NCBI GenBank assembly: GCA_037379345.1
Contig: CM074516.1
Coordinates: forward strand, 44,491,626-44,555,625
Length of the DNA stretch: 64,000 nt
Source: Perna viridis
Lineage: Eukaryota
Direction: 5' to 3'
Made by a program: the position numbers. Shown here in pieces: positions 24,001 through 27,000 of the stretch; within the stretch, counting starts at the first letter, position 1; each line of letters opens with the position of its first letter.

Positions 24001-27000
24001 TTTGCTTTGTTGTGTCTTCACCTTCTGAGTCACTGTAAAGAATAAACACATCAAGATTTACTTATTTTCAAGCAAAGTAAATATAAACCTACAAAAATTA
24101 CACATGATAGTTAATAACAACTAAAACAGCCATAAATATAAATGAATATAATTTGCAGGGTTCTCAGGGACCATAGCTTACCGGTCCAAGACAGTCAAAT
24201 TTAAAGATGTAAGACCTTTTAAAACTTAAACTATTGTTGAATTTCTTAATTCATAACATGCTAATTTCAAGCTCAAAAACAGTCTTGGAAATTGGGACTA
24301 AACTACCAGCCAATGCTGGTAAAAATAGAGGTAGGCTTTCAGAATTTTTGCTCCAAAGCGAATGTATCCTATATGAAATTCTTTTCTGATTAAGGGTGGG
24401 GACTTTGGGGGGACTCTGAAATTTAGACAGCAAAGACTGCAACTATGTATATCAGTAAGTCTATAATCCATGCCATAGGCATGGTCACATCTAAGAAGTA
24501 GATTGCAGAGTTGTGATATTGCCGTTTGTTTGACAATTACCTTGTCCCAAAAGTTCCAAAACTAGGTAAAATCTAGCAATGTGATCACTATAATCTTATC
24601 GTACCTTATGGTACTTCATGGAGTCTAAATTTTTAATGGGAGTCATTGGACTTCTGTGAAAAAATGGAAGAAAGAAAACCCTAATGTACATGTAAATAGT
24701 GCAAGGTCTTTTCTTACTATTGTAAAAATCATGTTTTTCTTTTCTGTTGATATATATAAAAAAAATGATGTATATTTAGACTTTAACTCTAATTGAGTTA
24801 TTTTGATTATGGGAGCTAACTAATTTCTTGATTCTACCTGTTATTGAGTCATTTTTATTATGGGAGCTAACTAATTTCTTGATTCTACCTGTTATTGAGT
24901 CATTTTTATTATGGGAGCTAACTAATTTCTTGATTCTACCTGTTATTGAGTTATTTTGATTATGGGAGCTAACTAATTTCTTGATTCTACCTGTTATTGA
25001 GTTATTTTGATTATGGGAGCTAACTAATTTCATGATTCTACCTGCTATTGAGTCGTTTTGATTATGGGAGCTAACTAATTTCTACCTGCTATCAGAGGAA
25101 TCTGATGAGTCTTTCTTGGCTCTCTTGTTTCCTGAGGTACATGTGTCTCCTAACTTCCTTTTGCTGCTTGAACTGAAACAATATAACTTAATATAGAAAC
25201 TGCAAAACAAGAACAGAATGCAGAATGTAATTGTGAATGCTTTTTGTTACCCTACCATATCTGTTTCTAACCCTTCAGGTTACAATTTCTTTGTTTCACA
25301 TTTAGAATATCATTGATCAGCAAAGAGTGTTTTTTTTATTATTATTATGTGGCTAATATGCTTATTTAAAAGCCTATCAAGAACTAAAATTGTAAAAAGT
25401 ATGCATGGCTTTTCGGCATCCTTGCAGCATATTAGCTGTAAAATATATATATATGAAATCAGACACATGGACACAAAATATACTGTGACCTCTACTCTGG
25501 GCAATTATGAAATGATATGATACTTTCAAAGAACATCATGCTGAACTAGTAGACAGCAAAAAAACACAAAGTTGATGTACATTGCACATCATGTACTTTG
25601 TTCAACTTCTTTGGACCATACATTAGAAAAAAAAAAGTTTTTGTAAATTGAATTATTTTCCTACCCAGTCCAGATTTGTTTAGCCACCGACTTTTGGGCC
25701 TGTACTCCCTAAGCCCCAAAGTAAATTTGAGCATGGAACCTAGTGGTAAGAGATCAATTCAATTATAGACAAGTCACTGTATTGAAGATGACGGCAGTAC
25801 AATTTATGGTAGCAAATATGTTGCGGTCAAATAATAGTTAAAATGAAATTAAATTTTTACTATGTTCCGGTATCTTGAAAACTCTCTCTAACTTAACAGT
25901 GTTATAGGTTTTTTTTTTCAAATTCAGGTTTTCAATGGGATAACTCCAAATGAAGATTAACTTTCCCTCAATTAAAATCTGCATTCTGAACTTAACAAAT
26001 CATTTCAGAAATTAAAATGTTGAAAGGGGAAAAGGAATATAATAATCAACTTTCCCCGAACAAAATTGTACTTACTCCATGTGAGGGAAAGTGGAACACT
26101 GCAACTACTCATGCTTCATGTTATATGTAAATTTATATGTAAATTAATATGTATATGTATTAACAAAGTGTCCGAAAATACTGCAGGGCTTACACTACTG
26201 GTCAATAAGGGCAAAATAGCTTGGGATCACTCTCTTTACCCTAAGACAACACCAACAGAAATTTTTAAACATTAGCAGTATTTTAACCAGAGTTGTATTT
26301 CTTCCAATAACAATTTGAACAATATGGTGCCTGTTGGTGAAAAAAGTCAAAATCTTCAAAATCATTAAGGATACAAGCATTCCTATCAGCTTTTTGCAAT
26401 AAAATTTTGAGACAGAATATGGAATGAACATTCTTGAATCCAGAATTGTTTCAGAAATTTTAAAAAATGGGGAAATTTAAAGATCCCACACCATGCTTTG
26501 CAAGAAGTTTTGCTTTCCACATTCAAATATTAATTTTGCTGTAATAGGGCATTGATGGAACATTTAGTAATACCCCCCCCCCCCACTTAAAGGTGAAAAA
26601 AGGGAAACCGAAATGGCAAAATATTCAAATTGCCCTAACTCGAAAACTGCGCTTTGGACTTGGCTGAAAATTAAACTTACATATGTAAATTGTATTTTAT
26701 GGAATAAACTTCTCACTTCTCCCTAAGCCCTCCCACTTTTTCTCAAATAGCTTGAACACTGTACTGTCATCATTGAACTTACTTTTGCCACTGATTGTAC
26801 ACTTCTTCTAATTTTGGTGAGCCTTTAGGGGGTGGTACCTGAAAAAAAAAAAAACATACATGTAACAATCTATCCTTTCAACCTGATGATGCCATCCAAA
26901 ATGCTAAAACCAAATACAAAGTCTATTTAAATTGCTTTTGCAAAGGATTTCCAGGATTGCTTGGCTTTCTTATCAGGTACAAAAAGGAGTTCATTGTGAT

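What the first reader, a model, noticed from the sequence alone, without database searches (positions are those of the whole stretch)
24790..25092. Second independent exon-end/donor minisatellite in NOLC1: five identical copies of a weak donor behind an in-frame stop
Seen: the NOLC1 exon 3 donor is the weak CAG|GTAGAA (intron starts at 25085). The same CAG|GTAGAA recurs at 25041, 24990, 24939, 24888 and 24837 (44-bp then 51-bp spacing). Read-through of the native donor gives AGG TAG, an immediate in-frame stop, so any downstream donor yields a PTC/NMD transcript. The decoys match the real site from -3 to +6, so selection must rely on exon definition. Inference: this is a possible unproductive-splicing control on a ribosome-biogenesis gene, or a tolerated mutational by-product.
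Basis: partly seen in the sequence, partly recalled or inferred. Interest (0 to 1): 0.65.

Follow-up and report, generated by a model that had tools for sequence, protein, structure and literature searches.

The report
Splice-donor minisatellite in a Nopp140 gene
A short tandem repeat has copied the end of one exon and its splice signal five more times into the following intron of a nucleolar-protein gene in a non-human animal; this is a known, usually harmless kind of repeat, and a neighbouring gene carries one too.

Summary
A 51-bp minisatellite (5.7 copies, 96 % matches) starts 7 nt inside exon 3 of a Nopp140/NOLC1-family gene on the − strand. It places five copies of CAG|GTAGAA downstream of the frame-preserving donor.

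The interpretation needs trimming:
- The donor is not the weakest in the gene by predicted U1 pairing.
- The stop just after the donor follows from intron phase 2 plus GTAG. Exon 2's donor has one too.
- The other donor minisatellite in the window lies in a neighbouring + strand gene, not in NOLC1.

This architecture is already described: human F7 intron 7 (also IFI6, CBS, LMNB2, PDGF) and the amphioxus "mirages". In those cases the most upstream site is used alone or nearly alone.

The neighbouring gene's 53-bp array carries 11 reiterated donors, most of them stronger than its first. Conserved orthologue proteins still require the first donor.

Best reading: a young, tolerated by-product of tandem duplication, with any leak giving stop-containing transcripts. 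Nothing found here supports a regulatory switch, and nothing excludes it, because no transcript data were available. The contig is not human.

The parts
25086..25172 (-). Exon 3 of the Nopp140/NOLC1-family gene (87 nt, phase 2 to 2; encodes ..SSSKRKLGDTCTSGNKRAKKDSSDSSDS..)
   Evidence: Acceptor ...TTGTTTCAG|T and donor CAG|GT, with phases matching exon 2 and exon 4. GC is 44 % against 28-32 % in the flanking intron. The codon-content score is +15.7, while 1238 open 28-codon intron windows have mean -20 and maximum +0.65, and 0 of 1238 reach it. Orthologue support is weak: one positional alignment to P0150 residues 62-85 (E 0.03 for that single comparison), an equally good off-position hit, and nothing for P0132. 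No transcript evidence.
25080..25088 (-). Frame-preserving (authentic) donor CAG|GTAGAA; intron G at 25085
   Evidence: Joining to the acceptor at 24032 keeps the 788-codon exon 4 in frame. U1 duplex -8.0 kcal/mol, 6 of 9 consensus positions.
25082..25084 (-). TAG stop at intron positions +2 to +4, in frame on read-through or on use of any downstream donor
   Evidence: ORF 25082..25246. It follows from phase 2 plus GTAG. Exon 2's donor reads AAG TAA in the same way.
24787..25092 (-). Minisatellite: six units (the first 44 nt, then five of 51 nt) plus a 7-nt partial unit. The first unit is the last 7 nt of exon 3 followed by intron sequence.
   Evidence: TRF 24792..25083, period 51, 5.7 copies, 96 %. 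Units in register are shown. The first unit lacks 7 nt (TCA[A/T]GAA) after GTAGAA. The four full internal units differ at 3 of 51 columns (10, 33, 39).
25036..25044 (-). Pseudo-donor 1, CAG|GTAGAA (44 nt downstream; shares ATAGCAG with the exon end)
24985..24993 (-). Pseudo-donor 2, CAG|GTAGAA
24934..24942 (-). Pseudo-donor 3, CAG|GTAGAA
24883..24891 (-). Pseudo-donor 4, CAG|GTAGAA
24832..24840 (-). Pseudo-donor 5, CAG|GTAGAA
24736..24786 (-). Decayed seventh unit at the distal edge; its donor position reads GAG|TTAAAG
   Evidence: 23 of 51 positions match the unit in register. Background intron 51-mers have mean 14.6 and sd 3.2, and 0.8 % of 10,978 reach 23.
24033..25085 (-). Intron 3 (1053 nt); the array fills its first ~300 nt
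21668..24032 (-). Exon 4 (2365 nt): acidic-serine/basic repeats, including a 108-bp coding tandem repeat; donor GAG|GTAATT
26783..26838 (-). Exon 2 (VPPPKGSPKLEEVYNQWQ..); donor AAA|GTAAGT, phase 2
   Evidence: tblastn to P0003 gives 69 % over 16 aa, E 0.04; blastp-short gives E 1.4e-5.
30083..30190 (-). Exon 1 coding part (ATG at 30190; MATGSENKKELLPFVYQYLKDLCYDGAKQLKDKFKV); donor GTT|GTAAGT
   Evidence: Weak tblastn to LisH-bearing orthologues, E 0.57. 85 % identical to P0156, a genomic ORF of a relative, E 1e-13. Pfam does not call LisH on 36 aa.
20359..20445 (-). Exon 5 (KKTKTPFRRVKAEEIVVDDRLKDNSFEAK); donor AAG|GTAATT
   Evidence: tblastn E 2e-10; sequence
18426..18581 (-). Exon 6 coding part with stop; SRP40_C domain
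   Evidence: Pfam PF05022, E 7e-23. 76-92 % identity for 119 of the 120 listed metazoan proteins, one at 52 %. Sequence.

Best explanation
This is a donor-spanning minisatellite of the kind described for human F7 intron 7 and for the amphioxus 'mirages'.

Origin (inferred from the sequence): a tandem duplication copied a 51-bp segment running from 7 nt inside exon 3 to about 44 nt into intron 3. The breakpoints share only an AT microhomology (ATAGCAG... at the start, ATTAGAG... after the end). Slippage or unequal exchange then amplified it to six units plus a decayed seventh. Internal units stayed nearly identical. The boundary unit that carries the real exon end diverged by a 7-nt indel flanked by AGAA repeats and by two substitutions.

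Splicing (inferred by analogy; not shown here): the spliceosome pairs the acceptor of the 87-nt exon with the nearest, most upstream donor. The five identical downstream sites stay silent or are used at trace level.

Consequence (shown in silico): any use of a downstream site keeps the TAG at +2..+4 and shifts the frame. Such transcripts are dead ends and are expected to be NMD substrates.

The array therefore has no evident function. It is a tolerated mutational by-product in a minisatellite-rich genome.
For: - Array anatomy and exact reiteration of the donor.
- Exon homology is limited to 7 nt; further upstream it is at chance level.
- The unit has no other copy in the window, so the array arose locally.
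- The units are young and homogeneous: 96 % matches, and 3 of 51 columns vary among the four full units. Invariance of the 9-mer is not significant (P = 0.55).
- A decayed edge unit with a destroyed donor fits ordinary minisatellite turnover.
- The window holds 13 non-coding arrays covering 6 % of its length.
- Independent second case: the 53-bp array at 7857..8533 (+) reiterates about 33 nt of an exon end plus its donor. It gives 11 further donor-like sites, 8 of them with better U1 pairing (-10.5 or -10.6) than the first (-8.4). Of the 24 orthologues longer than 500 aa that were examined, 19 aligned to both the exon peptide and the next ORF. In 18 of those 19 the two pieces are directly adjacent, so the first donor is the one the conserved protein needs.
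- Equal or better pseudo-donors are ignored elsewhere in the gene's introns: 11 outside the array in 8.9 kb.
- Precedent for F7: a 37-bp unit made of 4 exon nt plus 33 intron nt, 5-9 copies, only the most upstream site used, and the pseudo-sites functional once the upstream ones are mutated. LMNB2 and PDGF use only the authentic site. IFI6 and CBS also use the next two sites. Source: PMC1557585, Introduction, Discussion and first Results subsection.
[quoted passage not shown] Source: PMC3087553, passages only.
Against: - No transcript data exist for this locus or organism, so which donor is used is inferred and not observed.
- The decoys sit in unstructured RNA (z = +3.2; all 100 shuffles fold at least as well). 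Their predicted U1 pairing equals the authentic site's, so nothing in the sequence visibly silences them.
- Sequence context differs only modestly: 3 against 1 GAR triplets and 1 against 2-4 TAG in the 44 nt upstream.
- In 2 of the 5 human precedents listed in PMC1557585 the next two pseudo-sites are used constitutively. Some leak here is therefore quite possible.
- That the frame-preserving donor is the first copy follows necessarily from how such arrays arise. It is not independent evidence for a selection rule.
- Exon 3 itself rests on signals, frame and codon content, with only weak orthologue alignment.
Confidence: 0.72

Rival explanations
1. Constitutive leak. The first one or two pseudo-donors (25041, 24990) are used in a noticeable, unregulated fraction of transcripts, as in human IFI6 and CBS. 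This yields stop-containing mRNAs that are degraded, so the array slightly lowers Nopp140 output, perhaps in proportion to copy number.
For: - The decoys equal the authentic site at -3..+6 and in predicted U1 pairing.
- They lie in unstructured RNA.
- The extended exons of 131-335 nt are of ordinary size.
- IFI6 and CBS use the two next pseudo-sites (PMC1557585 Introduction).
Against: - In F7, LMNB2 and PDGF only the authentic site is used. In F7, 50 extra clones per transfection experiment showed no other splice variants.
- The neighbouring gene tolerates 11 mostly stronger decoys while its protein needs the first donor.
- No transcript data either way.
Confidence: 0.15
2. Regulated unproductive splicing. 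The cell shifts donor choice from 25085 to the decoys in order to tune Nopp140 through NMD, with the repeat acting as a platform of alternative sites.
For: - Every decoy gives a premature stop.
- From general knowledge, not tested here: ribosomal-protein and splicing-factor genes are known to use such loops.
Against: - Regulated poison elements are typically conserved (general knowledge), whereas this array is young (96 % unit identity).
- The array shows no constraint on the donor (P = 0.55).
- It has a decayed edge copy.
- An unrelated gene 17 kb away has the same architecture, which points to mutation rather than design.
- A search for NOLC1 with 'nonsense-mediated' and 'alternative splicing' found 19 papers, of which 12 were listed. 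None has a title or abstract about such a loop (listing only).
Confidence: 0.05
3. Model or assembly error. Either 'exon 3' is not an exon (exon 2 to exon 4 splicing is also in frame), so the array is a plain intronic minisatellite. Or the assembly misrepresents the copy number.
For: - Exon 2 ends and exon 4 starts in phase 2, so skipping exon 3 keeps the frame.
- Exon 3 has no significant orthologue alignment apart from its low-complexity tail and one weak positional hit.
- No transcript support.
Against: - Exon 3's codon content is far outside the intron distribution: +15.7 against a maximum of +0.65, with 0 of 1238 windows reaching it. Its GC is 44 % against 28-32 % in the flanks.
- It has a good acceptor and matching phases.
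- Orthologues carry a basic KRK(L) stretch followed by an acidic-serine stretch at this position (read by eye).
- Six near-identical units with ordered variants look like real sequence and not like a collapse artefact.
Confidence: 0.06

Closest known systems
Human F7 intron 7 VNTR (37-bp unit; Borensztajn et al. 2006, PMC1557585; I read the abstract, Introduction, Discussion and first Results subsection)
   Same: - The first monomer spans the exon-intron boundary: 4 exon nt plus 33 intron nt there, 7 plus 44 here.
- The authentic donor is followed by several pseudo-sites of identical sequence: 4-8 there, 5 here.
- The donor is non-consensus in both (UGG|gugggu there, CAG|GTAGAA here).
- Secondary structure does not explain the choice: none was found there, and z = +3.2 here.
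   Different: - Different gene, unit and organism (a non-human metazoan).
- Splicing behaviour was shown experimentally for F7 and is only inferred here.
- Here every pseudo-site gives a stop. In F7 the fifth and sixth pseudo-sites do not give a premature stop.
Amphioxus 'mirages': minisatellite-like tandem duplications of exon-intron boundaries in Adh3 and globin genes (PMC3087553; passages only)
   Same: - Tandem repeats span an exon-intron boundary and carry AG/GT signals.
- Several loci occur in one genome (two in this 64-kb window).
- Internal units are homogenised while the boundary units are excluded from homogenisation. Here the first unit is the most divergent and the distal unit is decayed.
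- They are reported not to disturb normal splicing.
   Different: - Reported unit sizes are 10-72 bp (Adh3) and 150-160 bp (globins), and some arrays span acceptors.
- The organism here is probably not amphioxus: no Branchiostoma protein is among the named best matches. The taxon could not be named.
- Additional files 4-6 of that paper, which hold the alignments, could not be read.
Human IFI6 (6-16) and CBS donor minisatellites (as summarised in the Introduction of PMC1557585)
   Same: The donor is reiterated by a minisatellite that begins at the exon end.
   Different: [quoted passage not shown] Whether that happens here is unknown. If it did, the products would carry a stop.
Regulated unproductive splicing (poison exons and alternative 5' sites coupled to NMD in splicing-factor and ribosomal-protein genes; recalled, not taken from any call)
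   Same: An alternative donor choice would introduce a premature stop into a gene of the ribosome-biogenesis pathway.
   Different: There is no evidence of conservation, of alternative transcripts or of a regulator. The alternative sites come from a recent repeat, not from a conserved element.

Membership tests
Donor-spanning minisatellite (F7 IVS7 type / 'mirage') | Head-to-tail tandem array of minisatellite-size units | tested here: met
   Period 51, 5.7 copies, 96 % matches
Donor-spanning minisatellite (F7 IVS7 type / 'mirage') | The first monomer contains the last nucleotides of the exon and the first of the intron | tested here: met
   The last 7 exon nt (ATAGCAG) plus 44 intron nt. Similarity further upstream is at chance level.
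Donor-spanning minisatellite (F7 IVS7 type / 'mirage') | The donor sequence is reiterated identically in the following intron | tested here: met
   Five further CAG|GTAGAA copies, all with U1 duplex -8.0
Donor-spanning minisatellite (F7 IVS7 type / 'mirage') | The authentic, frame-preserving site is the most upstream copy | tested here: met
   Only 25085 joined to 24032 keeps the frame. All other sites retain the TAG and shift the frame by +2. This is in silico only.
Donor-spanning minisatellite (F7 IVS7 type / 'mirage') | Pseudo-sites are silent or nearly silent in vivo | not testable with these tools
   No transcript data. No same-species protein was found.
Donor-spanning minisatellite (F7 IVS7 type / 'mirage') | Copy-number polymorphism | not testable with these tools
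   Only one haplotype is available
Regulated unproductive splicing (AS-NMD) | The alternative splice choice creates a premature stop | tested here: met
   TAG at +2..+4 is retained with every decoy
Regulated unproductive splicing (AS-NMD) | Alternative junctions exist and rise when NMD is blocked | not testable with these tools
   No RNA data
Regulated unproductive splicing (AS-NMD) | The alternative element is conserved across species | not testable with these tools
   No eukaryotic genome collection was on hand. Indirect evidence against: 96 % unit identity, no constraint on the 9-mer (P = 0.55) and a decayed edge copy.
Regulated unproductive splicing (AS-NMD) | The choice responds to a regulator or to feedback | not tested
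   Needs experiments
Nopp140 / NOLC1 / SRP40 protein family | C-terminal SRP40_C domain | tested here: met
   PF05022, E 7e-23, 81.7 bits against a cut-off of 28.6. Exon 5 supplies the first part of the domain.
Nopp140 / NOLC1 / SRP40 protein family | Central alternating acidic-serine and basic repeats | tested here: met
   Read directly from the 788-codon exon 4 and its 108-bp coding repeat. That this is a defining feature is recalled knowledge.
Nopp140 / NOLC1 / SRP40 protein family | N-terminal LisH motif | tested here: inconclusive
   Pfam finds nothing on the 36-aa exon 1 at E up to 1. tblastn to LisH-bearing orthologues gives only E 0.57.

The most novel reading that the evidence does not exclude
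The array is a copy-number-tunable bank of U1-binding sites just downstream of a non-consensus donor. It could act as a rheostat that diverts a variable share of Nopp140 pre-mRNA into stop-containing, NMD-targeted transcripts. Or it could do the opposite and act as an intronic enhancer that recruits U1 and helps define the small 87-nt exon. If donor-spanning arrays recur genome-wide in this lineage (there are two in 64 kb here), they might form a heritable, fast-evolving layer of expression control and a source of exon extension or intron gain outside the cephalochordates.
Probability: 0.07. Interest if true: 0.6.

Novelty: new member of a known kind. Interest (0 to 1): 0.25.

Why it matters
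This is not a new mechanism. Such arrays are natural experiments in how the spliceosome chooses among identical donors. This window offers two of them side by side, one with decoys equal to the real site and one with decoys stronger than it, in an animal that is neither a mammal nor, apparently, amphioxus. That modestly widens the known range of the 'mirage' phenomenon. It also gives a simple test bed (RT-PCR or a minigene) for the most-upstream-site rule outside mammals. Finally, it is a practical warning for gene predictors, which could pick a repeated donor and truncate the protein.

Tried and rejected
- **Decoys hidden in RNA structure: rejected.** The exon-plus-array RNA folds worse than its shuffles (z = +3.19; all 100 shuffles fold at least as well).
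- **Unit belongs to a dispersed repeat or transposon: no support.** No copy lies outside the array in the window. Only the window could be searched.
- **Known structured RNA in the window: none.** 0 Rfam matches at gathering score.
- **Duplication reaching deeper into the exon: rejected.** Beyond 7 nt the similarity is at chance level. My own first hand count of 14 of 20 matches was wrong; the script gives 11 of 20.
- **Direct proof of the junction from an annotated or transcript-derived protein: none found.** The exon 4 search gave only distant or low-complexity hits, the best being 42 % identity over 40 % of the query. The exon 1 search gave one hit, P0156, which reads on into intron-like sequence and so is genomic.
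- **Naming the organism: failed.** The best named matches to the C-terminal exon are Hydra, Lymnaea, Magallana and corals at 80-84 %. The flanking ORFs are only reverse-transcriptase fragments.
- **LisH on exon 1 by Pfam:** nothing.
- **Exon 3 against orthologues:** only low-complexity matches and one weak positional match. I replaced this with a codon-content test.
- **Literature link between NOLC1 and NMD-coupled splicing:** 19 papers hold the terms and 12 were listed. None is about such a loop (listing only).
- **Genome-wide human tandem-repeat/splicing catalogue (PMC10078293, passages only):** no donor-reiterating case appears in the passages seen.
- **Not done:** MaxEnt or SpliceAI-type scores, because no model was available. 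U1 duplex energy and a consensus count were used instead.
- **Not used:** structure prediction, complex prediction and the protein atlas, none of which bears on the question.
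Full report
**Setting.** The window is 64 kb with 33.5 % GC, CpG observed/expected 0.37 and no N. I do not take it for human. The Nopp140/NOLC1-type protein it encodes is only distantly similar to any database protein over its large exon (best 42 % identity over 40 % of the query, to a flatworm protein). Its conserved C-terminal exon is closest, among named proteins, to Hydra, Lymnaea, Magallana and coral sequences at 80-84 %. Exons were searched and compared one at a time.

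**Gene model (− strand).**
- Exon 1: ATG at 30190, ends 30083, donor GTT|GTAAGT, phase 0.
- Exon 2: 26838..26783, donor AAA|GTAAGT, phase 2.
- Exon 3: 25172..25086, 87 nt, donor CAG|GTAGAA, phase 2.
- Exon 4: 24032..21668, 788 full codons of acidic-serine/basic repeats, donor GAG|GTAATT.
- Exon 5: 20445..20359, donor AAG|GTAATT.
- Exon 6: 18581 to the TAG stop at 18428..18426.

Family membership rests on SRP40_C (E 7e-23) and on the repeat architecture. LisH is not called by Pfam on the 36-aa exon 1.

Exon 3 has only weak orthologue support: one positional alignment to a newt protein at E 0.03 for that single comparison, an equally good off-position hit, and nothing for the axolotl protein. 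Exon 2 to exon 4 splicing would also be in frame. Its codon content, however, scores +15.7 on an exon-versus-intron log-likelihood. The 1238 open 28-codon windows in this gene's introns have mean −20 and maximum +0.65, and none reaches it. Its GC is 44 % against 28-32 % in the flanks. I therefore accept it as an exon, without transcript proof.

**The observation.** It is correct at the stated coordinates.
- TRF finds 24792..25083, period 51, 5.7 copies, 96 % matches.
- CAG|GTAGAA has its intron G at 25085, 25041, 24990, 24939, 24888 and 24837.
- The 9-mer occurs 9 times in the window against 0.56 expected, and 0 of 100 shuffles reach 9.
- The first unit is 44 nt because it lacks TCA[A/T]GAA after GTAGAA. 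That indel is flanked by AGAA on both sides.
- The units share the last 7 nt of the exon (ATAGCAG in copy 2, ATAACAG in copies 3-6). Further into the exon the similarity is at chance level (p about 0.6).
- The four full internal units differ at 3 of 51 columns.
- A seventh, decayed unit follows, with 23 of 51 matches (reached by 0.8 % of background 51-mers). Its donor position reads GAG|TTAAAG.
- The unit occurs nowhere else in the window.

1. *Weak donor.* The site matches 6 of 9 consensus positions and lacks +4A, +5G and +6T. Yet it forms 7 contiguous pairs with the U1 5' end (−8.0 kcal/mol), more than the gene's other four donors (−5.6 to −6.7). These are duplex energies, not a trained splice-site score, which I could not compute.
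2. *Behind an in-frame stop.* In a phase-2 intron the codon after the split codon is T plus intron positions +3 and +4, so GTAA, GTAG and GTGA all give stops. Exon 2's donor reads AAG TAA. The stop is real (25084..25082) but is not a designed feature. Every decoy would in any case add 44 + 51n nt, which is +2 mod 3.
3. *Second ... in NOLC1.* No other array touches a mapped NOLC1 donor. The other case is in the neighbouring gene.

**The second case, and why it matters.** On the + strand, an exon at about 7786..7895 (..GEFWYDLRLHADPPPQTTLTHMECDLG) ends in AAG|GTATGT. The 53-bp array at 7857..8533 (12.6 copies, 82 % matches) reiterates about 33 nt of that exon end plus about 20 nt of intron.

This gives 11 more donor-like sites: six TTG|GTGAGTAC, two TTG|GTAAGTAC and three others. 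Eight of the 11 pair better with U1 (−10.5 or −10.6) than the first site does (−8.4).

The next exon starts at 8830 (..caattcag|G TGG ACA..). A representative search with that ORF found 71 relatives, among them proteins of about 3100 aa. Pfam gives only weak ASH/Ig-like signals.

Of the 24 relatives longer than 500 aa, 19 aligned to both pieces. In 18 of those 19 the exon peptide is followed directly by W[TIVK].Q.I.L.NPT, with nothing inserted. So the conserved protein needs the first donor of a 12-copy array whose later copies look stronger.

Two unrelated genes with the same architecture within 64 kb, in a window where 13 non-coding arrays cover 6 % of the sequence, point to a mutational process and not to a device specific to Nopp140.

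**What is known.** The Introduction of Borensztajn et al. [quoted passage not shown]
- In F7 intron 7 (37-bp unit made of 4 exon nt plus 33 intron nt, 5-9 copies) only the most upstream site is used.
- Mutating the sites in sequence activates the next most upstream copy and increases exon skipping.
- Pseudo-sites raised to 91 % U1 complementarity still do not compete (abstract; Discussion).
- LMNB2 and PDGF also use only the authentic site. IFI6 and CBS additionally use the next two.
- In amphioxus such arrays are called 'mirages'. They occur at several loci, show homogenised internal units with divergent boundary units, and by RT-PCR do not disturb normal splicing (PMC3087553, passages only).

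The anatomy here fits point by point. The supplementary alignments of that paper could not be read.

**Mechanism.**
- *Shown:* the array's structure, the identity of the six sites, the frame consequences, the lack of RNA structure over the decoys (z = +3.19), and the presence of 11 other equal-or-better pseudo-donors in 8.9 kb of this gene's introns.
- *Inferred:* origin by a 51-bp tandem duplication across the junction followed by slippage or unequal exchange; choice of the first donor through its position next to the 87-nt exon; and degradation of any decoy-spliced transcript.
- *Not shown:* actual donor usage.

Context differences between the authentic site and the decoys are small: 3 against 1 GAR triplets and 1 against 2-4 TAG in the 44 nt upstream, and +7/+8 AT against TC with no predicted gain in pairing.

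**Verdict.** It is a new example of a known kind and most likely a tolerated by-product (0.72). A constitutive low-level leak (0.15) is the main rival. Regulated unproductive splicing (0.05) and a model or assembly error (0.06) remain open. Interest is low to moderate. The pair of arrays would make a convenient test of the most-upstream-donor rule outside mammals.

Noticed in passing
window 7786..8533 (+), next exon from 8830: A second donor-spanning minisatellite, in a different gene on the + strand. A 53-bp unit in 12.6 copies reiterates about 33 nt of an exon end plus its donor. The 11 downstream donor-like sites are mostly stronger than the first. Orthologue proteins (about 3100 aa, weak ASH/Ig-like Pfam signals) need the first donor in 18 of the 19 cases where both pieces aligned.
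   Followed up: yes
window 22472..23573 (-), inside exon 4: A coding tandem repeat of 105-111 bp (about 10 copies, 93 % matches; also a 426-bp higher-order period). It encodes the acidic-serine/basic modules of the protein. The gene's repeat region is therefore itself a recently homogenised minisatellite.
   Followed up: partly
window 25199..25173 (-): A second possible acceptor (..cttgttttgcag|T) lies 27 nt upstream of the exon 3 acceptor, with a better pyrimidine tract. It is also in frame and would add FYIKLYCFS, a hydrophobic stretch unlike the rest of the protein.
   Followed up: no
window 27012 (-), intron 1; 27256..27890: A near-consensus pseudo-donor AAG|GTAAGTGA (8 of 9 positions, U1 duplex -11.4) sits in intron 1, next to a cluster of 129-156-bp direct repeats. 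This may be an unannotated alternative exon or simply repeat debris.
   Followed up: no
window 30955..32307 (-) and 43208..43918 (+): Open reading frames with reverse-transcriptase domains (RVT_1, E 1e-32 and 1.5e-19). These are retroelement fragments. The first lies about 0.8 kb upstream of the Nopp140 start codon.
   Followed up: partly
window 4224..5347; 3862..3983; 52114..52950; 38989..39121: Further tandem arrays: a 30/84/114-bp satellite of about 1.1 kb, 29 bp x 4.2, 325 bp x 2.6 and 39 bp x 3.4. The window is rich in minisatellites, with 13 non-coding arrays covering about 6 % of its length.
   Followed up: no
P0156 (unnamed 1.3-kb contig): A 100-aa ORF that is 85 % identical to exon 1 plus its leader and then reads on into intron-like sequence. 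It is a genomic fragment of a related species and the only close relative found for the N-terminus. I did not pursue its source.
   Followed up: no
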